A DNA stretch of 57,406 bases. Origin: a virus (taxonomy: Duplodnaviria; Caudoviricetes). This document shows, piece by piece, positions 2,201-56,552 of the stretch. Below the pieces are notes generated by a model. It made no database searches and was not told the origin of the DNA. It saw only the letters and a list, made by a program, of their open reading frames with translations. Location of the stretch: the IMG/VR virus record IMGVR_UViG_3300027668_000001, positions 1 to 57,406 of that record; one strand, written 5' to 3'. Positions within the stretch are counted from its first letter, which is position 1, and the number at the start of each line of letters is the position of its first letter. Made by a program: the position numbers and the translations under genes.

Positions 2201-2223
2201 AATCGACCCACAGGGGGTCAATT
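2201..2223 (+). promoter_or_regulatory. Conserved hairpin element (putative virion-RNAP promoter)
   Basis: AATCGACCC-ACAGG-GGGTCAATT, upstream of the SSB gene. Confidence 0.65.
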
Positions 2224-2961: not shown

Positions 2962-2984
2962 AATCCGACCACAGGGGCCGGATT
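2962..2984 (+). promoter_or_regulatory. Conserved hairpin element (putative virion-RNAP promoter)
   Basis: AATCCGACC-ACAGG-GGCCGGATT followed by TAAAAAGA. Confidence 0.65.
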
Positions 2985-7457: not shown

Positions 7458-7480
7458 AATCCGACCACGGGGGTCGGATT
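7458..7480 (+). promoter_or_regulatory. Conserved hairpin element (putative virion-RNAP promoter) heading the replication operon
   Basis: AATCCGACC-ACGGG-GGTCGGATT, perfect 9-bp stem. Confidence 0.65.
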
Positions 7481-14094: not shown

Positions 14095-14102
14095 GAGAAT
14101 AC

Positions 14103-16397
14103 ATGTCAGCAATCCAAGAGATAGTTGATTACCTTGTCAATAGGGTAGATGGTGTCAGTCCTGCACGTCGAAGACCCCATCTTGCTGGGCTCTTAATGAG
14201 ATTGTCTGGAAATTATAGTGAACGTATGGAAAGGTATGTTATTAAAAGCATATCGATACTCCAAATGCAATTCACTAAGGACACCAGCTCAAGCCCAGCT
14301 GGCACAACCACACTCACTAATGCATCTACTAAGGTAGGTCAGAGTATTGGTAAAGAACTAGACCGAGAGCCCCTCCCGTGGGGCTCTGTGGTGTCCATAG
14401 GAGACCTGTTTATAGAAGCCTTATACAACCTAGGGTTTGTAGACTTATCCTATGCTAAGACCCGTGACAGCTGCCACGTGGTGTCTGCATCACATAGGTG
14501 GTACGAGTTAGGTGTGATCCCAGATAAAGGTGGGAGCTTTCCCTTAGCCTCTACAAGTACCATAAGACCAAGGAATATATCTGGTATGATCCAGAAGATA
14601 AATGGTGTGGAAAGACCAGTCATAAAGGGGCGGGTAGAAGGAGATCCAATAGACCCCTATGCACCTTGGGTACAAGCACTTAACAAACTACAACAGACTG
14701 CTTGGAAGATAAACAAACCAGTCTACAATGCAATGATTGAGAACAAAGAGTTGTTCCTATCTACTGATCCTATCAAAGACAATGATGCTAAGGAGCTAAA
14801 GCGTAGGAGTAAGATGGTAGAGTGGGCATTCATCTCAGAGAAAGCACGTAAGCTATCAGAGCTAGATGAGTTCTACCAGTACCTAGATGTGGACTATCGT
14901 GGTAGGTTCTATTACTGTGAAAGCTTTATGAACTTCCAAGGATCAGATCTAGCTAGGGGATTGTTCAAGTTTGAACACGCAAAGCCAATGACTGCAAGTG
15001 GGTTACAGTGGTTAGCTATACACACAGCCTCTGTCTTCAACATGTCTTACAGCATCGATGAGATACCTGAGTGGTGTACTGCTGACTACAAGACACACCT
15101 TGAGGGTGAGGATTTAGATAACATCTCTGTTGACAAGATGACACTAGAAGATCGCATCAGTTGGACCAACGAGTACATGGATGAGATAGTCGAAGCAGGT
15201 AAACACTCACAGTTCTCTGAGGAAGCTGAGAAGAAAGTGTCTTTCCTTGCTGCATGTGTTGAGTGGTATGAATTTGACTGTGCTTACAAAGACAATCGTA
15301 TCCACATGACAAGCCTACCAATCCCTATTGATGGTAGTAACAATGGTTGGCAACACCTCGGAGCAATCTCTAAGGATGAGAAAACTGGTGAGCTAGTAGG
15401 TCTTATCCCCTCAGAGATACAGAAAGACTTCTATGTGAAGACTGCTAAGGAGACTATAGATCTGTGTAAAGATGATCGACTCAATAGTATCTTGTCTAGT
15501 ATGCCAATGAAAAGAATACGCAAGGGGATATCTAAGCGTGGCTCTATGACTAGGGCATACTCAGCAGGCTCTAAGAAGATCGCTGAGAACATGTTCTTTG
15601 ATTGTAAGTCAGAGGACTACCATACAGAGTACGGCATCACACAAGATGACTGTACTAAGTTATCTAAACTGCTGATCAAAGCAATTGATAAGGTATGTCC
15701 AGGACCCCTAGCTACTATGAGTTACCTACAGAACCTAGCGATGTACCAATTAGGTACACATGTGAAGGTAGACTCAGAGGGATACGAAGCTAACACTGAG
15801 TACAGAAACCTATCTAAGATCCGTGATACCCTCATGAAAAAGAACTTCAAGACTGATGAGGATCTCTATGAGCTTAACGATGTTGTAATTAAACTTAAAG
15901 AATTTACAACAAGACTTAAGCATGGGAAGGGTAAAGATAGGATTGAATGGAGCACACCTTCAGGTTTCCATGTGATCTATGAGAAATGGATCATGCAAGA
16001 TAGGAAAGCCAGAGGACGTATCAAAGGGTATGGTAACAAGACCGGACAGGTTACACACGTAGCCCTTGTGCCTACACGTATGCCAGACAGAAGAGGTTTC
16101 ATCTGTGGTATGTCACCCAACTACATACATTCTATGGATGCTAGTCACATGGCTTTAGTTATCTCTGAGTGGGATGGTTCCTTTGCAGCTGTACACGACA
16201 GCTTCAGTACACATGCTGGTGATGTGGATAAACTACTAGACTTAACTAAACAAGTATTCATACGCATGTATGACTACGATAATTACTTTGAGGTTATACG
16301 TAACTTCATAACAGATGCTGAAGACGATGTGGAACAACCTACATTGGGCAGCTTAGATATAAAGGAGATTGAAAACAGTGACTACTTCTTCACGTAA
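14103..16397 (+). CDS. Single-subunit T7-like RNA polymerase (late RNAP)
   Basis: DYRGR, DGSNNG, RKGISKRGSMTRAY, PNYIHSMDA, VHDSF. Confidence 0.95.
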   Translation: MSAIQEIVDYLVNRVDGVSPARRRPHLAGLLMRLSGNYSERMERYVIKSISILQMQFTKDTSSSPAGTTTLTNASTKVGQSIGKELDREPLPWGSVVSIGDLFIEALYNLGFVDLSYAKTRDSCHVVSASHRWYELGVIPDKGGSFPLASTSTIRPRNISGMIQKINGVERPVIKGRVEGDPIDPYAPWVQALNKLQQTAWKINKPVYNAMIENKELFLSTDPIKDNDAKELKRRSKMVEWAFISEKARKLSELDEFYQYLDVDYRGRFYYCESFMNFQGSDLARGLFKFEHAKPMTASGLQWLAIHTASVFNMSYSIDEIPEWCTADYKTHLEGEDLDNISVDKMTLEDRISWTNEYMDEIVEAGKHSQFSEEAEKKVSFLAACVEWYEFDCAYKDNRIHMTSLPIPIDGSNNGWQHLGAISKDEKTGELVGLIPSEIQKDFYVKTAKETIDLCKDDRLNSILSSMPMKRIRKGISKRGSMTRAYSAGSKKIAENMFFDCKSEDYHTEYGITQDDCTKLSKLLIKAIDKVCPGPLATMSYLQNLAMYQLGTHVKVDSEGYEANTEYRNLSKIRDTLMKKNFKTDEDLYELNDVVIKLKEFTTRLKHGKGKDRIEWSTPSGFHVIYEKWIMQDRKARGRIKGYGNKTGQVTHVALVPTRMPDRRGFICGMSPNYIHSMDASHMALVISEWDGSFAAVHDSFSTHAGDVDKLLDLTKQVFIRMYDYDNYFEVIRNFITDAEDDVEQPTLGSLDIKEIENSDYFFT

Positions 16398-16659: not shown

Positions 16660-16663
16660 AATT

Positions 16664-16712
16664 AAAAAGCCCCCAAGAAAACCTTAATGGTTCTCTTGGG
16701 GGCTTTATTTTT
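16664..16712. terminator. Bidirectional intrinsic terminator between the two genome arms
   Basis: AAAGCCCCCAAGA/TCTTGGGGGCTTT stem flanked by A and T runs. Confidence 0.9.
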
Positions 16713-16714
16713 AT

Positions 16715-19700
16715 TTAGTGTGCATAGTACTGCAATGGAATACGTCTACCGCTTTCGGTTTTGTAACCATTCATTAGTATTTCCTTTTTCAAATCTTTCT
16801 TTGCCTGATTAGTTGAGGAAATAACTTTAGGAAGTCTACTAATTAGGTTCAATTCATTACGAAGAAGACCTTTAAAAGTTTTTAGTTGTTGAACAGTAGG
16901 TTCATTAGGTGGGTTGAATGGATCGTACCCAACTTTTTTCATCTCTAAAACAACCACTTTGGACATACGAATCTTATCGTCCCGCAGCTGCGCTTCTGTC
17001 CTAACTTTATCAGAAGTGTTTGTCAGTTTGCTCATACGTCCCCAGAGATTAGCCATGTACAGATTACCACTGGCAGCAGTAGATACCTTAAGCATCCAAT
17101 CCATATAGACCCTCTCATTAACTGTGAGTTTATCGTCAGGATTCCTACCTTTCATCTTCTCTTCAAAACGTTTAGTTGCCTTAGTCAGGGAGTCACGTGC
17201 CTGTTCTAAGTAACTCCATTCAAGAGTTGCATCCATCCAGTTAAGATTAATCTCTTCTAGTGCAACGTCATAACCATTAGCATCTACTTTAAAAGCATCA
17301 TAGATAGTTAAGAGGTATGCATTACCATTAGATGCCTTGTTCATCCTATCCCAAGACTTGCCAGAGGCAGTCATTGCTACGGTAGCAGCATCGACAGCTT
17401 GAATAGGTGCAACAACAGATCCACCATAGGCAAACTCACCGGGAGTACCTTCAATAGAACCATCTGAGTTTGTCCTATTTCGAACAGCTGATGCTGTAGT
17501 TTCAGTTTCATAGTGAGCAACGTTTGTCTTAACCATCTCACCAGTCTGAGGAGATCTCCTCTTAAAGGTGCTCATAGAAGCTTCATCATAACCTGTAGAG
17601 GATTCACCACCAATATTGATGGCCATACCTGTTGGACCATAAATAATAAAAGGTTCATTCATAGCAGCATGTAGTGAAGCCGCAGCCCTCATAATAGATC
17701 TAGCTTCTCTGGAAGCAGGTGTCATAATCCCTTCAAGTGATACACTATATTTCTCTAAGAGAACTTTAGCTAAGTCTCTACGTGACATAGTAGAATCTAC
17801 AATAGAAAGACTTGGAGCATAAGAACTTTCAGGGTCTTCAAGAAGTTTCTGATTCATAACCTCTAAGACTTCTTCAATGTCAGTTACAAAACTTTCAATC
17901 TCCTTACCATAACCATAAGTCATGATTGTTAACTTAGCTAAATCTCTATTGTTAAACACAGCACGTGCAACATCATTCAGTTGTGGGAATAAATCCTCAC
18001 TGATGTTTGACCATCCACTATCTATACTCTCATTGGCTAATCCCATAAGTCTATCACGGATATCACCATCATCTAAGAGTGTTGTTCTGTTCCCCCTAGC
18101 CCTGAGGACACCAGTGTAGTAAGCCATATTGATCTCACCCATTTGCATACCCTGACTTGCAGGACCATTGGTCTTACCATCCATATAAGCATTGACATAA
18201 CTAATAAATTGTTTATCCTTGGGGTAGTTCCTTTTAAAGTCAACGTACTTAGCGAAGTCTATCAATGTGTCCATAAGAAGTGGGCCATCTTCTTTCTTAT
18301 CTTTAATCATCTTGATAATCATACTATCATAATCACTATTTGGATCAAGGCTAAGCTGATTGAACTGTGGGAATTGTGGAGAATCTAAGGGAACACCATT
18401 AGCAATGGCCTCAGACACAGCTTCATACTGTGCATCAGTCATTTCTAATGCTTGTTGAAGACGTTTACCATACCCATACAGTTCAGACTCTCTGGCTTTA
18501 AGCATAACTTCTCTTTGACGAGGTAAGAAAGTATCACCAGCATCTGTTATTGTATTGCCTGCAGAGTCTTTAACTTTAGACAATAAGATCATGGCATACA
18601 TCTGACGTAGGTTCTTCTCTTGCCTGTTTCCAGGTCTAATAATAGCCCCTACAGGTGCTCTTGTAGCAAATCGAACAGCCTTAGATGTCACTGGGTTGAA
18701 GAAAGATTGCTGAGGTGTCAGCCTCCCCTGAAAACCTTGAACATTATAAGTAAGGTAGTTAATACCATTACGATCTTGGGCTAATGCTTGGACTTCCTGT
18801 GCTAATTTATCCATCAAATTGTTGATGTTCTCTTGTGGAATATAAAGATCTTCATTTAGTTGTGGATTATTTTCCATCCTACGTTCCTGCATCTTAGCAG
18901 CAGCATTAAATTTGTTCATCCTTGATTGACCAACATTGTTGATCTCAGCCTGCCAAGTAGTGTGGTCATTGGACAAGAGTGTAGATAACGCAGTAGAATA
19001 TAAGATCTTCATACGTTGCTTATCAACCACATGGCCTACCTGACCTAAGTTATTAATAGCTTCTTCAATAATCTTACCCATCTTCTGACCAGAATTACCA
19101 CCAGACACTGCCCTAACTACATTCTTACCAACATCAGTATCAACCATTTGGTTAGGTGTTTTCTGAGGTCTCACTATTTGACGAGGGAAAAGTTTCTTAC
19201 GATCAATTTCACCTTCTTTAATAGCTGCCTCACCTTCTGCAGAAAGTGTATATACTATTTGCCGAGTCTTTGGATCAGTAGCGGTTGTAACCAGTGTTGG
19301 GTTAGAGTCTGCCCATAATTGTTTGAACGCAGCACCAAGTGTCTCAGCCTCCTTACGGTTCAGTTTATCTGGTGAAGCTAATGCTTGAACCATAGGATCA
19401 GTCTCAGGCACACCCTGACTTATCATAGCCTGCCTATTCCTACGCTGATACTCAAGATGTATCCTGTTACCTATCTGCCCGTTACCTTCAGCAAGTGTAA
19501 GCGTTTGGTTTACACCTTCCTTAGGTACAGATGTGTCTCCCATTGCCTCTGAAACAGGGTCAACAGTGCTTTCCATATTACCACCAAAAACATCCTCAAC
19601 AATAGCAGAAGCAATTTGAGTATACATTGGATTAGGTATCTTCATACCACTCTCAGATTCTATAATTGCATCTGCCCTACTAATAGCAGCTACGATATTA

Positions 19701-20218
19701 CCATCAGCGGTCTCAGCAATGGCATCTGCAAGTACTGGACCTGATACAGGAGATTCACCCTTAGTCAGTGGGTAAGCTGCATTTCCAAGGGCTGTTAAGT
19801 TTAACCCAAGATTACCATTATTTACATTATCAACAAGAGTCTTTGCACGAGATCTAAGATTACCACCAGCTTCAGATTGGGCTGCGATAGATAACTTCTG
19901 TCGCATAACAGGGGGTGTGACCCGTCTATACCTTTGGTTACCAGTCTGAGCATTGGTAGCCATGTCAGGAACTAAGAATCTGTCATCATTACTTTGTTGT
20001 TCTGGGTTAATTAAATCAGGCGCTAACCCAGATGCAGCCTGTGTGATCTCTGCAATTTGTTCTGGAGTAGTGTTAGCAATATCTTGTAGGATGCCTGATG
20101 AGGCAGGTGAAGATGCAGGTTGTTGAGGGGCTACCTCTTCCTCCTGCCTAACAAATCGATCTTCTAAAGATTGAGAGGGGAGCTCAGCACTCCCCCCTTT
20201 AATTATTGGTATCGCCAT
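16715..20218 (-). CDS. Second single-subunit RNA polymerase, putative virion-encapsidated RNAP
   Basis: In order: FQGRL, MDGKTNG (motif A), RDLAKLTIMTYGYG (motif B), IQAVDA, TIYDAF (motif C); last gene of the internal virion protein block; no Cys in 1167 aa. Confidence 0.8.
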   Translation of the reverse strand: MAIPIIKGGSAELPSQSLEDRFVRQEEEVAPQQPASSPASSGILQDIANTTPEQIAEITQAASGLAPDLINPEQQSNDDRFLVPDMATNAQTGNQRYRRVTPPVMRQKLSIAAQSEAGGNLRSRAKTLVDNVNNGNLGLNLTALGNAAYPLTKGESPVSGPVLADAIAETADGNIVAAISRADAIIESESGMKIPNPMYTQIASAIVEDVFGGNMESTVDPVSEAMGDTSVPKEGVNQTLTLAEGNGQIGNRIHLEYQRRNRQAMISQGVPETDPMVQALASPDKLNRKEAETLGAAFKQLWADSNPTLVTTATDPKTRQIVYTLSAEGEAAIKEGEIDRKKLFPRQIVRPQKTPNQMVDTDVGKNVVRAVSGGNSGQKMGKIIEEAINNLGQVGHVVDKQRMKILYSTALSTLLSNDHTTWQAEINNVGQSRMNKFNAAAKMQERRMENNPQLNEDLYIPQENINNLMDKLAQEVQALAQDRNGINYLTYNVQGFQGRLTPQQSFFNPVTSKAVRFATRAPVGAIIRPGNRQEKNLRQMYAMILLSKVKDSAGNTITDAGDTFLPRQREVMLKARESELYGYGKRLQQALEMTDAQYEAVSEAIANGVPLDSPQFPQFNQLSLDPNSDYDSMIIKMIKDKKEDGPLLMDTLIDFAKYVDFKRNYPKDKQFISYVNAYMDGKTNGPASQGMQMGEINMAYYTGVLRARGNRTTLLDDGDIRDRLMGLANESIDSGWSNISEDLFPQLNDVARAVFNNRDLAKLTIMTYGYGKEIESFVTDIEEVLEVMNQKLLEDPESSYAPSLSIVDSTMSRRDLAKVLLEKYSVSLEGIMTPASREARSIMRAAASLHAAMNEPFIIYGPTGMAINIGGESSTGYDEASMSTFKRRSPQTGEMVKTNVAHYETETTASAVRNRTNSDGSIEGTPGEFAYGGSVVAPIQAVDAATVAMTASGKSWDRMNKASNGNAYLLTIYDAFKVDANGYDVALEEINLNWMDATLEWSYLEQARDSLTKATKRFEEKMKGRNPDDKLTVNERVYMDWMLKVSTAASGNLYMANLWGRMSKLTNTSDKVRTEAQLRDDKIRMSKVVVLEMKKVGYDPFNPPNEPTVQQLKTFKGLLRNELNLISRLPKVISSTNQAKKDLKKEILMNGYKTESGRRIPLQYYAH

Positions 20219-20220
20219 TA

Positions 20221-23200
20221 CTAATTCTCCTTGTTGTCCTTATAGTTCCAACCACCACCAGTCATTAGACTAGCTAGTCTTTTATTAGTATCTGTAAAAG
20301 GTCCAATTCCAGGGGCTGATTTTAAACCCTGATATAAAGAACGTTCAAAGTCACCCTTAGCTGCATTCAAAGTTGCATCACCGAGCCTACCAACGTACCC
20401 AACAGTTGGGCTTTCACCTGTGGCTTGATTGTATAACCAACCACCAAGACCCTCAGAGCGTTGACCATAGATAGGTGCAAAGATATCAACAATCCTTTCA
20501 CCTGTGCCAAGCAAACCAGAAGACATGACACCACGGCGAATGTACTCAGGTGTGTCCAAGTATGGATTACCAAGTGTACCTTCGTCATCATCATCGTCAT
20601 CAAACTTTATCTCATCTTTCATAGCCTGTGAGAAGAACCCTAAGGCAATCATAGTAGACATGAGAACAAAGGTGTTGTACTTCATTGCTGGAGTGCCACG
20701 TTTGATATAGTCATTCCACATACGAGGTATATGGTTTGCTGTAAAGGTAGAAATGAAACCTTGGAACTGTGTAAACAAAGCAAACCTTGGATCTTGATAG
20801 AGCAAAGGACGATTAGCTGCACTTGGAAGGGCTACTGCTTGGTTAATAAAGTTGTAGGTAGCTTCCTTCATTGTTTGATTCCATGCATCCATCTCTTTAG
20901 CACTTAAAGGTAATCCTTTTTCAATAGCATTCATCATAGGAATGAATTGTTCTATAGGTATTCCCAAGCTTCTTAGCTTTTGCTCAGCCTCTTGGGCCTC
21001 ACGAGTAGGGCCTTGAGATACAATCTCCCCATCCTTAGTGACATACTCTGTTACAGTAGTTTTCTTCTTAGTCTTTTTATCAACAGTAGTAGTTGTTCTT
21101 GCCTCGTTCCTTTGATATAATATTTTAGAGTTAATAGATATAAAATCATAGGCCATACTTGCACGAACAGCACGAGTATAGTCAGTCCATTGAGTCAAAC
21201 CAATAGCCCTAAAGAAAGCTTCCATAACATTCTTACGATTGTCTGAAACCTCACTGACACCTGTGGTTGTTGCAGCGCCTACTTCCCAAGCATAGAAACC
21301 AGTTTCTCTAAGAAGCTTTTGACCTTCACTACCATTGTTCTGTTGAAGTATACCTTCATCAGTGCTGGATTCAACCTTCTTTAGATTAGGCAATAACCCC
21401 GCCACTGCTTCTTGAGCAATGTTCCTAATGCTTCCATTCTTACCAAAGATTTGTTCCTTAGTGAGCGCCCCTTGTGTCATAGCCATTTCAGGCAGTGAGG
21501 AAAATGTTGCAAGTGGAAGTGCGGATAGTGTCATCCAGAACATTACATTCTTCTGGAACCTCATAAGCTTTTTACCAGCTTGGGTAGTCGGCCTGTTGTA
21601 GTTACCTGACACAGCCTCTAAGATATTCTTAACCTCAGAAGCTACACGATTAACCTCTTCCTCAGGCACACCCTCGGCCTGCATCTTGTTCAAGAGTTTA
21701 GATATAATCTCTCCATCCTTACCAACATACTTCATTTGAGTTACGTAACGAGCCGCAGTCTTACTTGCATTAGCAACGTTAGCGAAGATGTCTTTCTCAT
21801 AGAACTGATCAAACTTTTCATTCTGAGATAGACCAAACTTCCTACGCTTGTGTGATGGTGGGTTGAGAGATCCTACATTACTGATAATAGCATCCGCAGA
21901 GTCCAGATCGTAGACGTTTGGGTTGTCTCTGATCTCATCTGTAATCCTTAAAGCTAGGTCAGGAGTGATTCCATACTCAGATATTAAAAGATTTTTAAAC
22001 TTCTCTGGATCCTTAGACACAGCAGCCTTATCAATTGACTTGTACTTAAGGAGGTAACCTTTAATATCTCCCAAATCAGCACCAGCATCTAATTGGTTTT
22101 GACGGAGTTCCTTACCAAGAGTCATCAATTGATTACCCAAGTCAATAATTACCTGCCTGTTCTCAGTGTCCTTTGGTACAAGATTCTGATTAAAGTTACC
22201 TCGTTTATCGATAGCTCCCCTCAACACTTTGTAAGTCATGTCACTTACCCTAGCTCTATCAGAAGACTTAAACACTCCTGCAATAGATCGAAGACCCAAT
22301 CTCTTATAGTAAGCTTTTGGGTCATGCACTTGGTTCTTGTAGTAAGTTACAAGATGGTGTTGTGCAGCTTCGATACCAGAACCACCATGTAAAGGAGTCA
22401 GTGTCCCACCTAAGATAGATGCCAATGCACGAGCAGACCTAGACTTATCTAGTGTAGCTTTTGGAATTGCATTTGTAACAGCAGCTTGCCAAAGATTAGA
22501 AACATTCATTACAGATGTAGATGCACGTTCCATAAATGTTTTCTGACCAGTTGTTTGCTTGTGCTTATCTCCTCTTTGATTAACGTTGGGACCGAGGTTG
22601 TCAGAGGCATCCACTTCTTTCTGAACATCTGACAGTAGTTGGGGTGTAGTTCTTACAGTCCCACCGTGATTTGCCTTCTCTTCTTCTATGTATCTTTCAT
22701 TGTCTGATTGAGATATTGGTTCTCCAAAACGAGCAGCTGCATCCATCCAAGTTATCTGATCTTTAACTGTACCGGGAATAGAAAAGGCACCACCTAAGGC
22801 AGTGCCAGCAATAGCAGCATTAGCTAAACGTTCTTTAAACTCTTCGTAGTCAAACACTTTATCTGAACCTTGAACAGCAGCAAGATAGCCAATAGCTTCT
22901 TGACCAACTTCAGTCAGTCCCTCAGATACAGAACCAACACCTACAGTTCCTAAAGCTCTCATAGAAGCCTGCTTAGCTGTTATCTGAGCCTTTGCAATCC
23001 TCTGTGCTTCATTGGCAAACTGACCAATGGCAGAGTCTGCTTCTGCTTTAACAAGTATCTTAGCATCTAGTAAACTTATTCCACGAGATTTAGCAAGTGC
23101 CTTTGGTATCTCTTCTCGTATAGTTTGTATTGGGTTTTTTCCTATACCTCCAATACCTTTAAGACCTAACCTATCAAGGACAGCTTGAGCTATGCCAGAA

Positions 23201-24309
23201 CCAATTGCAATGGTAGCTGACTTACTATCGTTATCACCTTCCATGTCATTCCAAGTTTGACCTGCATACATGAATGATGGGATAGCTACAGCACCTGAGA
23301 CAGCAAGAGCAGTACCTATAACAGGGGCAAGTACAGTTCCAGCAAGAGCCGAACCAGCAGTGATTGCCATATAAGGAAGAGACAAAGCCATTGTGTTCCC
23401 AAGGTACTCAATGAAACCTCCAATGTTATCAATATCTTTGTAGTTGTTAGTCGTATATCCAAACTCAGCCAGCTTACCTTGCTGCCTACGTACACCAGCT
23501 TCACCCCATCTTTCAAGACCCTCAGCTCCAGTAGAAGAACCAAACAGATTAGCAATACCATACGCACTCTCACCTACACTGATCCACCCTTGTTCCCAAG
23601 AGTCGCTGATAGGGTTGAGAGATTTGTTGTCAAGTGAGACACCAGGTCTTCGGATATCTACATCACGATAAAAATACTTATTCATTTCGCTTGTAGCTTG
23701 ATCCCTAGACATTCCTTGGGTCATGAAGTAACTGATGTAAGAAGCTCTTTCTTTTTCATCTACAAGGGTTTGTTTAAAGCCTAAAGACTTGGCACCTTGA
23801 GATCTCTCAGCAATCTCAATATCAACTGCAGCTTTATCAAATGCAGAAGGTTCGTATGTACCCTCGAAAATAGCCCTGTCCCTAGCAGCTGTTGTGGCTG
23901 TCTTTTGAATCCTATCAGAGTCTGTTGAGTACTCTGTTAGATCCATTGCACCTGAACTCATTAACATGCCTGAGAAAGTTTCCCCAACATCATTGACAAG
24001 ATCAACCATCTGACGAGTACCACCAGAATCCATCATAGGGGAACCGTCTGAATTGAACACAGGTTTTATGTTATTAAACCCCTGTTCATTAGCTAGTCGG
24101 GAGATAATGCCAGTGGTTTCTTTACCACCAGCAGTACCTTCCTTAACTTCCCCAGTGTATAAGATCTTAGACACCTCGGCAGCATCATAACCACGAAGAC
24201 GATAGTTGGGACCATCTGGGTTATCCAATGTGTCACCATCGATGAAGTGAGTACCAGTACCTGCTAAAGTATTAGGCTTAAAGTTACTAATATCATCTAA
24301 TATTCCCAT
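20221..24309 (-). CDS. Large internal virion (ejection) protein with N-terminal thermonuclease-like motif
   Basis: IDGDT and RLRGYDAAE at the N-terminus; hydrophobic Ala/Gly segment; gene position. Confidence 0.7.
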   Translation of the reverse strand: MGILDDISNFKPNTLAGTGTHFIDGDTLDNPDGPNYRLRGYDAAEVSKILYTGEVKEGTAGGKETTGIISRLANEQGFNNIKPVFNSDGSPMMDSGGTRQMVDLVNDVGETFSGMLMSSGAMDLTEYSTDSDRIQKTATTAARDRAIFEGTYEPSAFDKAAVDIEIAERSQGAKSLGFKQTLVDEKERASYISYFMTQGMSRDQATSEMNKYFYRDVDIRRPGVSLDNKSLNPISDSWEQGWISVGESAYGIANLFGSSTGAEGLERWGEAGVRRQQGKLAEFGYTTNNYKDIDNIGGFIEYLGNTMALSLPYMAITAGSALAGTVLAPVIGTALAVSGAVAIPSFMYAGQTWNDMEGDNDSKSATIAIGSGIAQAVLDRLGLKGIGGIGKNPIQTIREEIPKALAKSRGISLLDAKILVKAEADSAIGQFANEAQRIAKAQITAKQASMRALGTVGVGSVSEGLTEVGQEAIGYLAAVQGSDKVFDYEEFKERLANAAIAGTALGGAFSIPGTVKDQITWMDAAARFGEPISQSDNERYIEEEKANHGGTVRTTPQLLSDVQKEVDASDNLGPNVNQRGDKHKQTTGQKTFMERASTSVMNVSNLWQAAVTNAIPKATLDKSRSARALASILGGTLTPLHGGSGIEAAQHHLVTYYKNQVHDPKAYYKRLGLRSIAGVFKSSDRARVSDMTYKVLRGAIDKRGNFNQNLVPKDTENRQVIIDLGNQLMTLGKELRQNQLDAGADLGDIKGYLLKYKSIDKAAVSKDPEKFKNLLISEYGITPDLALRITDEIRDNPNVYDLDSADAIISNVGSLNPPSHKRRKFGLSQNEKFDQFYEKDIFANVANASKTAARYVTQMKYVGKDGEIISKLLNKMQAEGVPEEEVNRVASEVKNILEAVSGNYNRPTTQAGKKLMRFQKNVMFWMTLSALPLATFSSLPEMAMTQGALTKEQIFGKNGSIRNIAQEAVAGLLPNLKKVESSTDEGILQQNNGSEGQKLLRETGFYAWEVGAATTTGVSEVSDNRKNVMEAFFRAIGLTQWTDYTRAVRASMAYDFISINSKILYQRNEARTTTTVDKKTKKKTTVTEYVTKDGEIVSQGPTREAQEAEQKLRSLGIPIEQFIPMMNAIEKGLPLSAKEMDAWNQTMKEATYNFINQAVALPSAANRPLLYQDPRFALFTQFQGFISTFTANHIPRMWNDYIKRGTPAMKYNTFVLMSTMIALGFFSQAMKDEIKFDDDDDDEGTLGNPYLDTPEYIRRGVMSSGLLGTGERIVDIFAPIYGQRSEGLGGWLYNQATGESPTVGYVGRLGDATLNAAKGDFERSLYQGLKSAPGIGPFTDTNKRLASLMTGGGWNYKDNKEN

Positions 24310-24330
24310 TACATATCTCCTTGTGTTAAA

Positions 24331-27300
24331 TTATGCTATTAGTCCATTCACCATACTCTTCATGACATACTGCATTAACCCACTTACACCAATAGCAGCA
24401 CCTGTGTCAATGTGGCCTTGCCTTAATTCAGGGTCTAGATCTCGCCAATCGTTGTAAGTATCTGTAGTCATTAGCCAAGATGAAACCTGAGTATCATTCA
24501 TGCCAGCTAATTCTTCTTGACCTTCACGAGCTGCCGCATCCTTAAGAGTCTTTATGAAAGTTGTAATATTTGCTATAGGAACTGGTTTATCAAAAGTAAC
24601 CTTACCCTCACTATTCTTTGAAGGTAAGAAGAAGTTTTGTGCATCAGTAGTATTAGATTCTACCCAAGCTCTTGAGAAATAGTTACTTAATCCAGAGATT
24701 TTCTTACCAGACTTAGTATCAATCAATGCTTCATTGTAAGCCTTTTCTACAAGCTCTTCCATCTGCTCTAGTTCCATACCATTCTCAATAGCAAACACAA
24801 CAGCTTCCCTTCCAATTTTTGCTTTTGGAATGCCCAGATATGATTGACCAGTCACAATAGCACCAGCACTGTCTCTCTTTGGATTATTAGTATCTAGTTG
24901 TCCTACAAACGTTGATATCTTATCTCTTATCGATTTCTTGTATGTCTGATTGGCTTGTGTATTAGGGGCAAACCTACCATCGTTGGTAAGTGTACTTAGA
25001 TTAACCTGCTTATTGCCATCAAACCAATAATTACCATCACCTACTTTTTTTTGAATTAAAGTAATTTCCCTACCTGTTCGCCTATCATACATGGTCATTG
25101 GCTGAGCACTAGTGGGAACGGCAGGGAGACCTTTAGTTACAAGATCACCAAAGTCCATTGATTTCTTAAATATTGCAAGACTTTCCTTAGTATGTGTATC
25201 TGCAATAGCAACCTTATTATAGGTACTTTCCTTAGCATCTACCCTAGCAATGTAGTTCTTACCTGCAAAGGCAAGAGCTTGATTACCACTAAGACCAGTA
25301 GCACGACCACCAAGGTACATAACAGCAGCCCTAGCAAGTTCTTTACTGTCAAACAGATTCCCAAAGACACCTTTGAGCATAGCCATAGCACCTGTTACTT
25401 CAGGATTTTTAACTTTGTCAGCTAATAATTTAGCAGCAGCCGCTTCAGCAGCCGCTTTTTCTGCTGGAGTTAATACAGGATTTTCTTTTTCTAAGTTTGT
25501 AACAATGTTTTCAACATCAGCTATAGGGTTTTTAACAGTAGTTTCTACAGTTGTATTATCAGCAGGGTTGACATAAGGTACGATATTATCACGTTCCTGT
25601 TCTATCCTAATAACATCAGAGTTCTTCCTAGTTAGTTGCATCTCAGCTCTTTTTTCAGCCTCTTGCGCCTTTGCAAGTTCCAACTTATTAGCTTCAGCTT
25701 GAGCTTTAGCATCTGCCAGTTGTTGAATTGCCTGCTGACTTCCAGGGTTTAATCTTATGTACTCTTCAAGATTTGTAATGACGTTTAGAGTAGTTTCCAA
25801 AGTATCTCTCGCAGAGTAAACCTGCTTTTCTACTATATCAAGAGGGCCTCGTTCAAGAGTCTCTCGCATAATACGGTCCATGTAGAGATTGTCTCCACCT
25901 GTACTCATATCACTCTGGTCAGTCGCAGCTTCAATTTCGTTTAACCGGATTTGATTAATTGCTTGATCATCCCCGTCAGTAGCAAGACGTTCTAATTCAG
26001 TTCTAGTCATACTCTTATAGTTCTTATTCACTACAGGGGGTATGTCATTATCCAAACTAGGAATATTTTCTCTAGTTTCTTGGTACAGAGTGCCGTAGTT
26101 TGGAGGGATATTGTAACCAGTCAACTCCTCTAAGCTTGTCATTGATGGTGTAAATGCCCCTGAAATAAGATTAGATACCTTGCTGTGTTCAGGTGATCCA
26201 ACCTCTAGCCTTTCACGAAGATCCATTAATCTTTTCTGTGCTTCAGACCTACGATATTTATCTGGGTCATTACCAATGAAGTCATTACCAATGACATTAC
26301 CACCCATAGGTATATTATTACCCATCATCCTAGGAACATCTTGAATAGATGCTGGAAGGTTGTAACTCATCAACTCATCTAGGCTTATCATCGATGGGCT
26401 TAATGCCTTTGTAATAATATCAGATATCTTGATGTGTTCAGGTGATCCAACAGGTAAACTTTCACGCAGATCCATTAACCTTTGTTGTTCTACAGTCCTA
26501 CGAGAAATAGCATCACCAGTCTGACCATACCCTGAAGCACCTAAAGTACCAAATCCTGTCTCCCTAGGATCACTAATCACTTGTCTATCCTGACCATTAG
26601 TGAAGATATTACCTTGACCAAATGTCTCATTACCTAAGCCTGAGCCCGGTCTTGGTACACTGTAATTCAATTGCTTGAATGGAAATTCCTTCCTAGCCTC
26701 TTCAACACTATCAGAAGATCCTTCAAGTAATGATTGATCACTGTTAGGGATTGGGAGGTATGAGAGGTCTGGTGGAGGTGTGTTCATCCATTCAGGTCCA
26801 GCCACTGGAGGAGAGTTGGGGATTGGGAGATATGAGAGGTCTAATGGAGGTGCAACAACTGGCTCCGGAGGGGCTTGCCTCTGAGGCATCTTATCAATTA
26901 GAAGTTGCGATTGATCAAACTTAGTAAGAGCATCACGCTCATTCCTTTTAAACCAAGCGTTATCAACATCCTCTTGAAGATTACGCCGAGCCATTTGATC
27001 TATAGATAACCCGCCTGTATTTAAGTGGATAGGGCCACCCATATTTTTCTCGTCAGTATAACCAGCAGTATAACCACTACTAGGAAAGTTAGAGATACCT
27101 CCCGCTCCCATGTCTGAAAGCCTTGGACTATCTTGTACCCCTCTAGGAGTAGGTACACCAATAAACCTTGGATCAGGAACACTTACCTGATTTGCAATCA
27201 TTACATTCGGATCAAGTCCAGCATACATGTCTTGAGATGGCATCATCTGATTATCACGAGCTGCATTAGCAAGTTCCTGTTCTATCCTAATAACATCAGA

Positions 27301-28362
27301 GTTTTGAGGTTGGGGAGGTGCTGCTTGCATCTGTGGTATTAAATTAGGTGCCATACCAGTCTGGCCATACCCTGAAGAGCCTCCAAGTTCCCTCTGATCA
27401 TAGTTCTGTTGTGGTTCAGGAGAGGTTGGACGTGACTGTGGACGTAATGATGTGTCAGGGGCCATTGGACGTGACTGTGGACGTAGTGATGTGTCAGGTG
27501 CTGCAAGAGGTGGGGTGACAGGTGCCTCAGGTTGTTGAGTCTCCGGACGTGACTGTGGACGGGGTGATGTGTTAACGGTAGCTTGGTTTAAAAGTTCTCT
27601 CTTTGGATTTGGATCTCCAGAAAGTTCATGGTACCTATTTATCCAACCCGCACCATGTTTATCCCAAGTATCAAATGTTTCAAACTTATCTAAGAGTTTG
27701 TTTTTAAAATCTATAGGAGAAAAAGAGTGATTCAAAGGTAGATCATCTGAATATTTATTAATATATCCCATAGTCGTTGGTCCCATAATACCATCTACTT
27801 GGTCTGAGGGCATACCTAACATTTCTTGCATGATCTTTAAACCATGACCACCACTATTAAATATAGAATGGAAATAAATTTCTTGCAATTCTGGAGGAAC
27901 TTTAGCTACCTGATATTTATCATAGTAGTTTTTTACTAAGATCCCTTTAGCCTGTTCCTTAGTAAGTGCTTTCATATCAGCTGCGGTTGGGGTTCTTCCT
28001 AAATAAATTTTAAGTTCTGGAGCAGCAATTCCAAAGTTAGTACCTACAAAAGGTTCGTTGCCTAACTTACCTGCCTTACCATTTGTATAGTTACCATTGT
28101 CATTTACGTCTTTAGAGTAACCAGCTTCTGCTTTAAACACTGACGAAATAAGATCTTCTTTACTTTTAGCAGTACCACCATCATTGTAATGTTGAATACT
28201 ACCACCCATGTTTTTCATTGCACGATGCTGTAAACCTGCGCTATTCATCTGCTCTATCACAGGAGCAAACATAGTTGATGCTTCCTTATTGAGGACAAAT
28301 TCTCCGGGTGTTAGCATCGCAGGTACAGTATCCCGATTAGTCGGATCTGTTTTATCAATCAT
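24331..28362 (-). CDS. Internal virion protein with GH108-like peptidoglycan hydrolase domain
   Basis: DTVPAMLTPGEFV; EAGYSKDVND...TNFGI; VDGIMGPTT; GWINR; start at 28362 has an AGGAG SD. Confidence 0.75.
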   Translation of the reverse strand: MIDKTDPTNRDTVPAMLTPGEFVLNKEASTMFAPVIEQMNSAGLQHRAMKNMGGSIQHYNDGGTAKSKEDLISSVFKAEAGYSKDVNDNGNYTNGKAGKLGNEPFVGTNFGIAAPELKIYLGRTPTAADMKALTKEQAKGILVKNYYDKYQVAKVPPELQEIYFHSIFNSGGHGLKIMQEMLGMPSDQVDGIMGPTTMGYINKYSDDLPLNHSFSPIDFKNKLLDKFETFDTWDKHGAGWINRYHELSGDPNPKRELLNQATVNTSPRPQSRPETQQPEAPVTPPLAAPDTSLRPQSRPMAPDTSLRPQSRPTSPEPQQNYDQRELGGSSGYGQTGMAPNLIPQMQAAPPQPQNSDVIRIEQELANAARDNQMMPSQDMYAGLDPNVMIANQVSVPDPRFIGVPTPRGVQDSPRLSDMGAGGISNFPSSGYTAGYTDEKNMGGPIHLNTGGLSIDQMARRNLQEDVDNAWFKRNERDALTKFDQSQLLIDKMPQRQAPPEPVVAPPLDLSYLPIPNSPPVAGPEWMNTPPPDLSYLPIPNSDQSLLEGSSDSVEEARKEFPFKQLNYSVPRPGSGLGNETFGQGNIFTNGQDRQVISDPRETGFGTLGASGYGQTGDAISRRTVEQQRLMDLRESLPVGSPEHIKISDIITKALSPSMISLDELMSYNLPASIQDVPRMMGNNIPMGGNVIGNDFIGNDPDKYRRSEAQKRLMDLRERLEVGSPEHSKVSNLISGAFTPSMTSLEELTGYNIPPNYGTLYQETRENIPSLDNDIPPVVNKNYKSMTRTELERLATDGDDQAINQIRLNEIEAATDQSDMSTGGDNLYMDRIMRETLERGPLDIVEKQVYSARDTLETTLNVITNLEEYIRLNPGSQQAIQQLADAKAQAEANKLELAKAQEAEKRAEMQLTRKNSDVIRIEQERDNIVPYVNPADNTTVETTVKNPIADVENIVTNLEKENPVLTPAEKAAAEAAAAKLLADKVKNPEVTGAMAMLKGVFGNLFDSKELARAAVMYLGGRATGLSGNQALAFAGKNYIARVDAKESTYNKVAIADTHTKESLAIFKKSMDFGDLVTKGLPAVPTSAQPMTMYDRRTGREITLIQKKVGDGNYWFDGNKQVNLSTLTNDGRFAPNTQANQTYKKSIRDKISTFVGQLDTNNPKRDSAGAIVTGQSYLGIPKAKIGREAVVFAIENGMELEQMEELVEKAYNEALIDTKSGKKISGLSNYFSRAWVESNTTDAQNFFLPSKNSEGKVTFDKPVPIANITTFIKTLKDAAAREGQEELAGMNDTQVSSWLMTTDTYNDWRDLDPELRQGHIDTGAAIGVSGLMQYVMKSMVNGLIA

Positions 28363-28381
28363 ATCATTCTCCTGATAGTGG

Positions 28382-35635: not shown

Positions 35636-35655
35636 CTATAAGGAACTTAGAGAAT
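35636..35655 (-). promoter_or_regulatory. Late phage-RNAP promoter upstream of nrdJ
   Basis: ATTCTCTAAGTTCCTTATAGGGGGG on the minus strand. Confidence 0.8.
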
Positions 35656-56529: not shown

Positions 56530-56552
56530 AATCAGTCCACAGGGGCCTGATT
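56530..56552 (+). promoter_or_regulatory. Conserved hairpin element (putative first virion-RNAP promoter)
   Basis: AATCAGTCC-ACAGG-GGCCTGATT upstream of the first early gene. Confidence 0.6.

What the first reader, a model, noticed from the sequence alone, without database searches (positions are those of the whole stretch)
16715..20218. A second, divergent single-subunit RNA polymerase hidden among the internal virion proteins
Seen: the 1167-aa last gene of the structural arm carries, in the correct order, FQGRL (DxxGR equivalent), MDGKTNG (motif A, about 18165-18184), RDLAKLTIMTYGYG (motif B, about 17907-17947), IQAVDA and TIYDAF (motif C, about 17291-17308). It has no cysteines. A conventional T7-like RNAP (14103..16397) lies tail-to-tail with it. 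Known: N4 packages a Cys-free virion RNAP of about 3500 aa whose catalytic core is about 1100 aa, whereas T7-like phages have one RNAP and use host RNAP early. Inference: this is a stand-alone mini virion RNAP injected with the DNA, which would make a T7-style genome independent of host RNAP. I cannot tell whether relatives have already been described.
Basis: partly seen in the sequence, partly recalled or inferred. Interest (0 to 1): 0.92.

Follow-up and report, generated by a model that had tools for sequence, protein, structure and literature searches.

The report
Small stand-alone N4-type virion RNA polymerase
A marine phage that already has a T7-type RNA polymerase also encodes, as the last of its injected virion proteins, a small free-standing relative of phage N4's giant injected RNA polymerase, so it may start infection without the host's polymerase.

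Summary
Window 16715-20218 (-) encodes a 1167-aa, cysteine-free protein with all five quoted motifs at the stated places. Pfam and sequence searches of solved structures do not recognise it. Its AlphaFold model (pLDDT 82, pTM 0.82) matches only single-subunit RNA polymerases: T7, mitochondrial and N4 mini-vRNAP, E down to 1e-15. Profile-profile comparison ties it to the N4 virion-RNAP polymerase domain (95-98% probability, P 3e-8 to 8e-13), not to T7-like RNAPs (P 0.17). N4's catalytic R424, D559, K670, Y678 and D951 map to R499, D680, K762, Y770 and D974, which are invariant in 199 of 199 full-length relatives.

Packaging and injection are inferred, not shown. The gene is the last of a cysteine-free ejection-protein operon, as gp50 is in N4. 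In 71 of 71 related viral loci it lies tail-to-tail with a T7-like RNAP.

The genome is a complete phage of about 57.3 kb of the CRP-7 type. My searches of the paper library found no description of this enzyme. This scan has flagged the same family before on other genomes. Verdict: a new variant of a known kind, of high interest.

The parts
16715..20218 (-). Gene for the 1167-aa, Cys-free, stand-alone N4-type RNA polymerase (P0001)
   Evidence: ORF and translation. AF2 model with pLDDT 82.4. Foldseek finds only ssRNAPs, E down to 9.4e-16. hhalign to the N4 vRNAP polymerase domain gives Prob 95-98%.
18719..18733 (-). T/DxxGR-type motif FQGRL. R499 corresponds to N4 mini-vRNAP R424.
   Evidence: Position. 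Mapping. R499 is invariant in 199/199.
18164..18184 (-). Motif A, MDGKTNG. D680 corresponds to N4 D559 and T7 D537. G685 lies at the place of T7 G542.
   Evidence: D680, G681 and G685 are invariant in 199/199.
17906..17947 (-). Motif B, RDLAKLTIMTYGYG. R758, K762 and Y770-G771 have the R-x3-K-x7-YG spacing of N4 R666, K670 and Y678.
   Evidence: K762 and Y770 are invariant in 199/199; G771 is conserved in 198/199.
17387..17404 (-). IQAVDA block. Q940 aligns with N4 Q934; D943 is invariant.
   Evidence: At position 940, Q in 187 and H in 12 of 199; D943 in 199/199.
17291..17308 (-). Motif C, TIYDAF. D974 corresponds to N4 D951.
   Evidence: D974 is invariant in 199/199.
16666..16706 (-). Terminator-like hairpin (18-bp stem, then a T-rich tail) starting 8 nt after the target's stop codon. 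It marks the end of the minus-strand late arm.
20216..20235 (-). Junction with the upstream gene: GGAG, the TAG stop of the 1362-aa gene, 2 nt, then the ATG of the target. This suggests tight translational coupling.
20221..24309 (-). 1362-aa, Cys-free virion protein directly upstream; probably an ejection protein
   Evidence: phrog_6958 'virion structural protein', E 1.8e-19. 0 Cys. A homologue lies upstream of the target in 53 of 71 related loci; the other 18 loci hold under 800 bases upstream.
24331..28434 (-). 1367-aa, Cys-free protein with a lysozyme domain near its N-terminus; resembles an internal virion protein
   Evidence: Pfam Glyco_hydro_108, aa 97-195, E 5.1e-13. phrog_315. 0 Cys.
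28382..30429 (-). 450-aa and 231-aa genes upstream; the 450-aa protein has no Cys. Probable smaller members of the ejection cassette.
   Evidence: The window's 450-aa protein has 0 Cys. The window's 231-aa protein was not counted on its own. Families: 6 of 10 (450-aa) and 17 of 18 (231-aa) members have 0 Cys. No family assignment.
14103..16397 (+). Conventional T7-like RNAP (764 aa, 10 Cys), convergent with the target
   Evidence: PF00940 at E 2.5e-54. phrog_414 at E 5.3e-99. Present convergently downstream of the target homologue in 71/71 loci.
56530..56552 (+). Hairpin element, copy 1, at the head of the plus-strand arm. Candidate promoter for the virion RNAP (inferred).
2201..2223 (+). Hairpin element, copy 2
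2962..2984 (+). Hairpin element, copy 3
7458..7480 (+). Hairpin element, copy 4, upstream of the replication and T7-like RNAP unit
   Evidence: Also found at the equivalent place in L008, L013 and L018.
35636..35649 (-). Nearest upstream copy of the linear motif TAAGTTCCTTATAG on the target's strand. Candidate late promoter of the unit that ends with the target.
   Evidence: 5 exact copies in the window against 0.79 expected:

Best explanation
The gene encodes a compact, free-standing homologue of the polymerase domain of phage N4's virion RNA polymerase (gp50 'mini-vRNAP').

The likely mechanism has four steps.
1. The gene is transcribed late, with the tail and ejection-protein genes.
2. The protein is packed into the capsid together with the cysteine-free internal virion proteins.
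3. It is expelled last through the tail channel into the host cytoplasm.
4. There it transcribes the first plus-strand (early and replication) units. It probably starts at the four conserved hairpin elements, and transcription may also help draw the DNA in.

One product of those units is the T7-like RNAP, which would then read the minus-strand late arm from linear TAAGTTCCTTATAG-type promoters.

Shown: the RNAP fold, the specific kinship to N4 vRNAP, an intact and invariant catalytic site, the lack of cysteine, the gene's position and its conserved pairing with a T7-like RNAP.

Inferred: catalytic activity, packaging, ejection, the promoter assignment and independence from host RNAP.
For: Fold:
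- The AF2 model has pLDDT 82.4 and pTM 0.82.
- Foldseek against the PDB gives 72 matches at E <= 1e-3. Every listed row (ranks 1-49) is a single-subunit RNAP: yeast mitochondrial 8atv at 9.4e-16, T7 3e2e at 5.1e-15 and N4 mini-vRNAP 3c3l at 8.7e-13 with TM 0.43/0.45.
- BFVD gives T7-like RNAPs and pieces of N4-like vRNAPs.

Kinship:
- hhalign of the 55-sequence family alignment against an 8-sequence N4-like vRNAP polymerase-domain alignment gives Prob 95.2%, P 2.9e-8 (local, 569 columns) and Prob 98.1%, P 7.5e-13 (global).
- Against a 21-sequence T7-like family, P is 0.17.
- Against the reversed N4 control, P is 0.79.

Active site:
- R499, D680, R758, K762 and D974 align with N4 R424, D559, R666, K670 and D951. 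These N4 catalytic residues are named in PMC2784036 (passage). Y770 matches N4 Y678 only in my ungapped reading of motif B; hhalign itself aligned Y768.
- R499, D680, K762, Y770 and D974 are invariant in 199/199 relatives.

Ejection-protein signature:
- The target has 0 Cys, as do the three proteins upstream; together that is 4346 aa. The phage's cytoplasmic enzymes have 1.3-2.2% Cys.
- 192 of 199 family members have 0 Cys and 7 have one.
- N4 gp50, gp51 and gp52 and T7 gp15 and gp16 also have 0 Cys.

Position:
- It is the last gene of the minus arm, coupled to the upstream virion protein and followed by a terminator-like hairpin.
- N4 gp50 holds the same place: after gp52 and gp51, and convergent with the replication arm. 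[quoted passage not shown]

Conservation: 71 of 71 IMG/VR loci with a homologue carry a T7-like RNAP convergent just downstream.

Promoter candidates:
- Four hairpins occur on the plus strand against 0.05 expected.
- Their stems covary across 64 instances in related phages, while 24 pattern matches in unrelated contigs mostly do not pair.
- Sigma-70-like sites are not enriched in 1-17000: 40 found against 46.1 +/- 7.4 expected.
Against: - No direct evidence of packaging, ejection or activity exists for this protein or any relative. The CRP-7 paper has no proteomics (0 occurrences of 'proteom' or 'mass spectrometry').
- The protein lacks the N- and C-terminal domains of N4 gp50, which in N4 serve ejection and encapsidation. 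The neighbouring large proteins show no significant similarity to them; the best P is 0.0033 over 62 columns among 60 comparisons.
- The rest of the genome is not N4-like by BLASTP; the best hit is the portal at E 0.054.
- Pfam PF00940 does not hit, and a sequence profile against the PDB finds no RNAP.
- The hairpins could be RNA-processing or regulatory sites. Their loop is conserved between genomes whose target proteins are only 44-46% identical, and its conservation tracks the conserved plus arm. So they do not by themselves point to this enzyme.
- In more divergent loci, my hairpin scan found no equivalent element.
Confidence: 0.7

Rival explanations
1. It is an active RNA polymerase that is not packaged. 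It works in the cytoplasm late in infection, for example by priming or activating DNA replication or transcribing a subset of genes. This would resemble N4 RNAPII rather than N4 vRNAP.
For: The fold and catalytic site are those of the main reading. N4 vRNAP is also said to be needed for DNA replication (PMC2784036, passage). No packaging data exist.
Against: - Cys is nearly absent in 199 relatives (192 with none), whereas the phage's cytoplasmic enzymes, including its other RNAP, have 1.3-2.2%.
- The gene closes the ejection-protein operon and is translationally coupled to a virion protein. It does not sit in the replication arm.
- Its specific kinship is to the packaged N4 enzyme.
Confidence: 0.12
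2. It is packaged and ejected, but its main job is mechanical or structural: pulling the genome in or forming part of the ejection channel. Early genes would be read mostly by host RNAP, as in T7.
For: It sits in the ejection cassette. In N4 the vRNAP is part of the ejectosome, and its transcription helps transport the genome into the cell (PMC4496689 and PMC13434306, passages). Some sigma-70-like sites do occur in the early region, for example at 721-748 with 11 of 12 matches.
Against: Sigma-70-like sites are no more frequent than in shuffled sequence. The invariant NTP-binding and catalytic residues imply real synthesis. The four hairpins sit in front of the plus-strand units.
Confidence: 0.1
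3. It is a catalytically dead RNAP-fold protein kept only as a structural internal virion protein.
For: The sequence has drifted far. Pfam does not match, and the gene evolves much faster than the replication genes: in L018 the target is 44% identical while the T7-like RNAP is 92%.
Against: Every catalytic residue tested is invariant in 199 of 199 members despite that fast divergence. This is the pattern of an active enzyme.
Confidence: 0.05
4. It is a right-hand polymerase of another kind, such as a family-A DNA polymerase or a primase-polymerase, and not an RNA polymerase.
For: Family-A DNA polymerases share the palm and fingers architecture. The sequence-profile search of the PDB gave only chance-level hits.
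Against: All listed structural matches are RNAPs and none is a DNA polymerase. Motif A has Gly (G685) where T7 RNAP has G542. The profile match is to N4 vRNAP along the whole domain. The phage has its own DNA polymerase at 9250-11088.
Confidence: 0.03

Closest known systems
Polymerase domain ('mini-vRNAP', residues 998-2103) of coliphage N4 virion RNA polymerase gp50 (Schitoviridae); structures 2PO4, 3C2P, 3C3L, 9PNQ
   Same: - Homologous by profile-profile comparison along almost the whole domain (Prob 95-98%).
- Same fold and the same catalytic residues.
- Nearly the same size as the mini-vRNAP: 1167 aa against 1106 aa.
- No cysteine.
- The gene is last in the ejection-protein operon and convergent with the replication arm.
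- Hairpin elements precede the early units. N4's early promoters are hairpins (PMC4496689, passages).
   Different: - It is a separate protein of about 1170 aa, not the middle third of a 3500-aa protein. It has no counterpart of the gp50 N- and C-terminal domains.
- No fused form of 2044-5000 aa was found among 5676 candidates, which is weak evidence.
- The host genome is about 57 kb, not N4-like in its core genes.
- The phage carries a full-length, one-chain T7-like RNAP instead of N4's two-subunit RNAPII.
- The hairpins here have 9-bp stems and 5-nt loops, against 5-7 bp stems and 3-nt loops in N4.
T7-like single-subunit RNA polymerases (Pfam PF00940; Autographiviridae gene 1) and mitochondrial RNAPs
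   Same: Same right-hand fold; these give the best Foldseek E-values. Motif A aligns with T7 D537 and G542. Motif B has the R-x3-K-x7-YG spacing.
   Different: - No significant sequence or profile similarity: Pfam gives none and hhalign gives P 0.17.
- T7-like RNAPs are Cys-containing cytoplasmic enzymes made early. T7 RNAP has 12 Cys and the window's own T7-like RNAP has 10.
Roseobacter phage CRP-7 (MK613349) gp33, annotated as a hypothetical protein
   Same: - CRP-7 is the closest cultured phage: portal 53% and T7-like RNAP 35% identical, with the same gene order.
- gp33 is at the same position, has 1235 aa and 0 Cys.
- Its family aligns colinearly with the target family through motifs B and C (P 0.012).
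- The model of a 1107-aa family member has N4 mini-vRNAP 2po4 as its best structural match (E 2e-3).
   Different: - It is too divergent for BLAST: tblastn of the target against 50,697 phage records found nothing.
- Its model is of low confidence (pLDDT 64, pTM 0.43), and no structural match reaches E 1e-3. That gp33 is an RNAP is therefore likely, not established.
- CRP-7 lacks the window's hairpin motif and instead repeats a linear motif three times.
T7 gp16 / 'IVP-D' internal virion proteins that carry cargo domains (Hardies et al. 2016, PMC4819975)
   Same: [quoted passage not shown] Here the RNAP sits at the end of a cassette whose 1367-aa member carries a lysozyme domain.
   Different: Here the polymerase is not embedded in an internal virion protein; it is a gene of its own. 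I could not show homology of the neighbours to T7 gp16 or to the N4 gp50 C-terminal domain.

Membership tests
Single-subunit (T7 / N4 / mitochondrial) DNA-dependent RNA polymerase superfamily | Right-hand polymerase fold of this class | tested here: met
   The AF2 model has pLDDT 82.4. Foldseek against the PDB gives 72 matches at E <= 1e-3, and all listed rows are ssRNAPs.
Single-subunit (T7 / N4 / mitochondrial) DNA-dependent RNA polymerase superfamily | T/DxxGR arginine; motif A and motif C aspartates; motif B Arg/Lys...Tyr-Gly | tested here: met
   R499, D680, K762, Y770 and D974 are invariant in 199/199. G771 is conserved in 198/199. Position 758 is R in 160 and K in 27 of 199. Mapping to the N4 residues.
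Single-subunit (T7 / N4 / mitochondrial) DNA-dependent RNA polymerase superfamily | Match to Pfam PF00940 (RNA_pol) | tested here: not met
   There is no PF00940 hit at E <= 1. The only sequence signal is phrog_414 'RNA polymerase' at E 0.0015. One related Atlas cluster of about 1216 aa has PF00940 on 88% of its members.
Single-subunit (T7 / N4 / mitochondrial) DNA-dependent RNA polymerase superfamily | Template-dependent RNA synthesis | not testable with these tools
   This needs purified protein.
N4-type virion RNA polymerase (Schitoviridae gp50) | Homology to the gp50 polymerase domain | tested here: met
   hhalign gives Prob 95.2% (P 2.9e-8, local) and 98.1% (P 7.5e-13, global). The reversed control gives P 0.79.
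N4-type virion RNA polymerase (Schitoviridae gp50) | Giant protein (2842-3820 aa in reference genomes, per PMC10654107) with N- and C-terminal domains flanking the polymerase | tested here: not met
   The target is 1167 aa and the alignment covers only the mini-vRNAP part. The neighbours show no significant match to the gp50 N- or C-terminal domains. The published screen discarded hits under 2500 aa (passage).
N4-type virion RNA polymerase (Schitoviridae gp50) | No cysteine residues | tested here: met
   The target has 0 of 1167. 192 of 199 relatives have none. N4 gp50 has 0 of 3500, and seven other N4-like vRNAP segments have 0.
N4-type virion RNA polymerase (Schitoviridae gp50) | Last gene of the ejection-protein operon, convergent with the replication genes | tested here: met
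   Window gene order. N4 gene order. Conserved in 71/71 loci.
N4-type virion RNA polymerase (Schitoviridae gp50) | Present in virions and injected | not testable with these tools
   No proteomics exist for CRP-7.
N4-type virion RNA polymerase (Schitoviridae gp50) | Hairpin promoters in front of early genes | tested here: inconclusive
   Four covarying hairpins lie in front of plus-strand units. Their use as promoters, and by which enzyme, is not shown.
Schitoviridae (the phage as a whole) | N4-like hallmark genes (portal, capsid, DNA polymerase and others) | tested here: not met
   BLASTP of six window proteins against seven N4 proteins gives nothing below E 0.05. The nearest cultured phage is the unclassified CRP-7.
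T7-like RNAP (Autographiviridae gene 1 type) | Sequence or profile similarity to the family | tested here: not met
   hhalign gives Prob 0.4%, P 0.17. Pfam gives none.

The most novel reading that the evidence does not exclude
This abundant group of marine phages runs its whole transcription programme on two single-subunit polymerases in relay and never needs host RNAP. An injected compact vRNAP would read hairpin promoters on the entering DNA. It would thereby make a T7-like RNAP, which then reads the late genes. This would be the single-subunit counterpart of the two multisubunit RNAPs of phiKZ-like jumbo phages. It would also be the unfused form of what N4 carries inside gp50.
Probability: 0.4. 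Interest if true: 0.88.

Novelty: new variant of a known kind. Interest (0 to 1): 0.78.

Why it matters
- A virion-packaged single-subunit RNAP has been treated as the hallmark of N4-like phages, where it is always buried in a protein of about 3500 aa. Published screens for such enzymes discarded anything under 2500 aa (PMC10654107, passage).
- Here the same enzyme type appears as a free protein of mini-vRNAP size. The family is large and wholly unannotated: 265 clusters at 50% identity. Its genomes are not N4-like and also carry a T7-like RNAP.
- If packaging is confirmed, the injected-polymerase strategy is much wider than Schitoviridae. It would also offer a natural minimal vRNAP for structural and biotechnological work.
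- It would make host-RNAP-independent infection testable in a cultured system, the roseophage CRP-7.
- It bears on how N4 gp50 arose, by fusion or by split of a cargo polymerase and an internal virion protein.

Tried and rejected
- Sequence-only recognition failed. Pfam gave two chance-level hits at E 0.11. phmmer against PDB chains gave 0 hits at E <= 10. The family profile against PDB chains had its best hit at E 0.088, to Cas12c1, and no RNAP among the 60 rows shown. hmmsearch of the family profile against T7 RNAP, N4 gp50, CRP-7 gp30 and gp33 found only gp33 under the inclusion threshold, weakly.
- The phage collection gave no match for the protein (tblastn, E <= 1e-3) or for 10 kb of DNA. 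That collection may leave out the window's own record.
I did not repeat it.
- I tested whether the 1362-, 1367-, 450-, 231-, 131- and 406-aa neighbours correspond to the N4 gp50 N- or C-terminal domains, N4 gp51-54 or T7 gp13-16. Sixty hhalign comparisons gave a best P of 0.0033, so there is nothing to claim. These were family profiles against single sequences, so sensitivity was low.
- I tried to map the N4 hairpin-recognition residues (W129, K114, R119, D901, R904) onto the target. The alignment confidence in those parts is too low to use.
- RNA evidence: three runs hold small shares (0.06-0.09) of window 1-9000. Laid on 1-20000, they gave only short assembled contigs. These cannot show starts, strand or level, and may be DNA carry-over. 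I use no claim of expression from them.
- I looked for equivalent hairpins in more divergent relatives. They were found only in close relatives (L008, L013, L018). The other loci either do not reach that far or have none by my scan.
- The fused-form search (2044-5000 aa) found none. The tool itself calls this weak evidence.
- Papers: I saw the search listing plus passages of PMC6918029, PMC10654107, PMC13434306, PMC4496689, PMC2784036, PMC4819975 and PMC10386132. I read no paper in full.
- The claim that this enzyme is not in print rests on the searches, in that library alone.
- I opened no supplements. The ORF tables of the CRP-7 paper and the supplementary lists of the N4-like screen could hold an annotation that I did not see.
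- The numbering T7 H784, the essential T7 C-terminus and the phiKZ comparison are recalled from memory and come from no call.

Full report
**What is there.** The window is a complete phage genome. Bases 1-127 repeat exactly at 57280-57406, which leaves about 57.3 kb of unique sequence.

A plus-strand arm holds small early genes, then a DNA polymerase (9250-11088), an exonuclease, a primase/helicase (12454-14094) and a T7-like RNAP (14103-16397; PF00940 at E 2.5e-54).

A minus-strand arm runs from the large terminase (54275-55927) through portal, scaffold, capsid and tail-fibre genes and a class II ribonucleotide reductase. It continues with a 231-aa, a 450-aa, a 1367-aa and a 1362-aa protein, and ends with the gene in question, 16715-20218, 1167 aa.

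The start codon follows the stop of the 1362-aa gene after 2 nt, with GGAG in front. A terminator-like hairpin with an 18-bp stem begins 8 nt after the stop.

**It is a single-subunit RNA polymerase.** Sequence methods barely see this:
- Pfam gives nothing.
- PHROGs gives only phrog_414 'RNA polymerase' at E 0.0015 over aa 655-866.
- phmmer and a family profile against PDB sequences find no polymerase.

An AlphaFold2 model built on a 55-sequence alignment is confident (mean pLDDT 82.4, pTM 0.82). Only residues 1-76, 94-119 and 216-237 are disordered.

Foldseek against the PDB gives 72 matches at E <= 1e-3. Every row listed (ranks 1-49) is a T7, mitochondrial or N4 RNA polymerase: 8atv at 9.4e-16, 3e2e at 5.1e-15 and N4 mini-vRNAP 3c3l at 8.7e-13. 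The viral model library gives T7-like RNAPs and pieces of N4-like virion RNAPs.

**It is kin to the N4 virion enzyme, not to T7.** I built two alignments:
- the polymerase domains of N4 and seven diverse Schitoviridae vRNAPs;
- 21 T7-like RNAPs, including T7, CRP-7 gp30 and the window's own enzyme.

Profile-profile results were as follows:

| Comparison | Result |
|---|---|
| Target family vs N4 set, local | Prob 95.2%, P 2.9e-8, 569 columns |
| Target family vs N4 set, global | Prob 98.1%, P 7.5e-13 |
| Target family vs T7 set | Prob 0.4%, P 0.17 |
| Target family vs column-reversed N4 control | P 0.79 |
| T7 set vs N4 set | P 0.02 |

With a permissive setting, the N4 alignment runs over target profile positions 24-1107 against N4 34-1106. 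The protein is therefore essentially a mini-vRNAP and little else.

In the alignment, R499 matches R424, D680 matches D559, R758 matches R666, K762 matches K670 and D974 matches D951. hhalign placed a two-residue gap in motif B and so paired Y768 with Y678. Without the gap, the invariant Y770-G771 falls on Y678-G679 with the K-x7-YG spacing, and I take that as the true equivalence. The N4 residue numbers are those given in PMC2784036 (passage).

**The catalytic site is under selection.** The family is large:
- 135 proteins at E <= 1e-3 among the 8000 candidates scored;
- 265 representatives at 50% identity in an exhaustive search, of which 156 are below 1e-30.

None carries any name but 'hypothetical protein'. 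From the 249 family proteins held, I dropped the 50 shorter than 1000 aa and aligned the other 199. R499, D680, G681, G685, K762, Y770, D943 and D974 are invariant in 199 of 199. G771 is conserved in 198. Position 940 is Q in 187 and H in 12.

This holds although the protein evolves fast. In locus L018 the T7-like RNAP, the primase and the DNA polymerase are 91-92% identical to the window's, while the target is 44% and the two large neighbours are 56% and 33%.

**Why I think it is packaged and injected (inferred).**
1. Cysteine. The target and the three proteins upstream have none in 4346 residues together, whereas the phage's RNAP, DNA polymerase, primase and reductase have 1.3-2.2%. Of the 199 relatives, 192 have none and 7 have one. 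The known ejected proteins N4 gp50, gp51 and gp52 and T7 gp15 and gp16 also have none, while N4 gp53 and gp54 have 4 and 3. PMC2784036 notes the same absence for roseophage vRNAPs and links it to entry into the host.
2. Company. The 1367-aa neighbour has a Glyco_hydro_108 lysozyme domain (E 5.1e-13). The 1362-aa neighbour matches a 'virion structural protein' PHROG (E 1.8e-19).
3. Place. In N4 the order is gp52, gp51, gp50, with gp50 last and convergent with the replication genes, and the vRNAP is the last protein expelled (PMC13434306, passages). The window has the same layout.
4. Timing. The only promoter-like motif on the target's strand upstream of it is the copy of TAAGTTCCTTATAG at 35636-35649. 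It is one of five exact copies, against 0.79 expected. The gene is therefore probably read with the late structural genes.

**Conserved partnership.** A scan of IMG/VR with the family alignment returned 71 loci.
- In 71 of 71, a homologue of the T7-like RNAP lies convergent just downstream.
- In 70 of 71, the primase/helicase follows. The remaining locus ends inside the RNAP.
- In 53 of 71, a homologue of the 1362-aa protein lies upstream. The other 18 hold under 800 bases upstream.

Two polymerases tail to tail is thus the rule for this phage group.

**What it may transcribe.** Four copies of a 23-nt hairpin lie on the plus strand at 56530, 2201, 2962 and 7458. Each has a 9-bp stem and a CAC(A/G)G-type loop and is followed by T and a purine run. 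With two mismatches allowed, four copies are found against 0.05 expected.

A scan of IMG/VR with the pattern gave 84 instances in 65 loci. Sixty of them lie in the 41 loci that share proteins with the window. Together with the window that makes 64 instances of 10 distinct sequences. All form 8 or 9 of 9 stem pairs, with C-G, T-A, A-T and G-C exchanges at stem positions 5 and 6. The 24 instances in unrelated contigs form 5-8 of 9, of which five are forced by the pattern.

The first copy heads the plus arm, with no plus-strand gene of 100 aa or more upstream in the ORF list (a 76-aa plus-strand ORF, 56275-56505, ends just before it). This speaks against a terminator. Sigma-70-like sites are not enriched in 1-17000 (40 against 46.1 +/- 7.4).

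N4 early promoters are hairpins with conserved loop and stem bases, followed by a run of A (PMC4496689, passages). The parallel is suggestive, but which enzyme, if any, starts at these elements is not shown. The loop is also conserved between genomes whose target proteins are only 44-46% identical. Another note of this scan (e1-6259162) raised the same idea. I tested only the structure and the distribution.

**The cultured relative.** The nearest cultured phage is Roseobacter phage CRP-7 (58,106 bp). Its portal is 53% and its T7-like RNAP 35% identical, and the gene order is the same. Its gp33 sits where the target sits, has 1235 aa and no cysteine, and is annotated as hypothetical. The paper on CRP-7 mentions only ORF30 as an RNAP and has no proteomics (passages).

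gp33 is too far from the target for BLAST. Its family (21 hits) aligns colinearly with the target family over 556 columns, through motifs B and C, at P 0.012.

A model of a 1107-aa member is weak (pLDDT 64.2, pTM 0.43). Its best PDB match is N4 mini-vRNAP 2po4 (E 2e-3), followed by mitochondrial, T7 and N4 RNAPs. No match reaches 1e-3. So gp33 is probably a further member, which would give an experimental handle, but this is not settled.

**What it is not.** The phage is not a Schitoviridae member by its core genes. The protein lacks the gp50 N- and C-terminal domains, and I found no sign that the neighbours replace them. No fused relative of 2044-5000 aa turned up, which is weak evidence.

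Hardies et al. describe the N4 polymerase as embedded in a homologue of T7 internal virion protein D (PMC4819975, abstract and passage). On that view, the window shows the cargo polymerase as a gene of its own, beside the internal virion proteins.

**Novelty and standing.** Searches of the paper library for CRP-7, vRNAP outside N4-like phages, second RNAPs and related terms found no description of this enzyme. The published metagenomic screen for N4-like vRNAPs removed hits below 2500 aa. The Atlas names the nearest clusters 'hypothetical protein'.

This scan has met the same family before in other genomes, and follow-up agents reached similar readings. I did not test those notes, and they are not independent evidence.

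I class it as a new variant of a known kind: the N4 strategy in a compact, unfused form, in a different phage lineage that also has a T7-like RNAP.

My confidence in each step:

| Claim | Confidence |
|---|---|
| It is an N4-related single-subunit RNAP | about 0.95 |
| It is catalytically active | about 0.85 |
| It is packaged, injected and reads early genes | about 0.7 |
| The phage needs no host RNAP at all | about 0.4 |

Noticed in passing
window 1-127 and 57280-57406: The two ends of the window are identical over 127 nt. The contig is therefore a complete genome, either circularly assembled or terminally redundant, with about 57,279 unique bases.
   Followed up: partly
L004-L074 compared with window 16715-28434: The ejection cassette, including the polymerase, diverges far faster than the replication arm. 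In L018 the T7-like RNAP, primase and DNA polymerase are 91-92% identical, while the target is 44% and the 1362- and 1367-aa proteins are 56% and 33%. The cause could be module exchange or an arms race with the host.
   Followed up: partly
window 7505-7518(-), 35636-35649(-), 54138-54151(-), 55945-55958(-), 56325-56338(+): There are five exact copies of TAAGTTCCTTATAG against 0.79 expected. Four sit just upstream of minus-strand genes, so this is a candidate promoter class for the T7-like RNAP. A separate note of this scan covers it (e1-6259163).
   Followed up: partly
window 1-600 and 56690-57000: The early region is built of repeated units of about 440 nt. Each holds a conserved stretch, AACCTATATCTTGAAAGGATATA..ATG, whose inverted repeat TATATC/GATATA encloses the ribosome-binding site (families D1 and D5).
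   Followed up: no
window 33825-35576 (-): A ribonucleotide reductase large-subunit gene (phrog_84, E 2.3e-128; 13 Cys) sits in the middle of the structural arm, between tail genes, with its own copy of the late motif in front.
   Followed up: no
window 7038-7430 (-): A lone minus-strand ORF of 130 aa lies inside the plus arm and is preceded by a late-type motif (7505-7518). It faces the fourth hairpin (7458-7480) about 25 nt away.
   Followed up: no
L001 (CRP-7) 2017-2044, 7138-7165, 14755-14782: CRP-7 has no copy of the window's hairpin. It repeats TATAGTCC..TATTAAAAGG three times in plus-arm intergenic gaps, including just upstream of its T7-like RNAP gene. This may be a different promoter type in the relative whose gp33 is most diverged.
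   Followed up: no
window 37730-38400 and 40850-41310 (-): The 399-aa and 491-aa tail-fibre-like genes share several internal repeats (families D2, D4, D6, D9 and D11). This suggests repeated beta-structure units or recombination between fibre genes.
   Followed up: no
P0001 residues 1163-1167: The C-terminal QYYAH is nearly invariant: Y1164 in 176 and H1167 in 181 of 199 members. A conserved free C-terminus recalls T7 RNAP, whose C-terminal residues reach the active site. That point is recalled from memory and was not tested.
   Followed up: no
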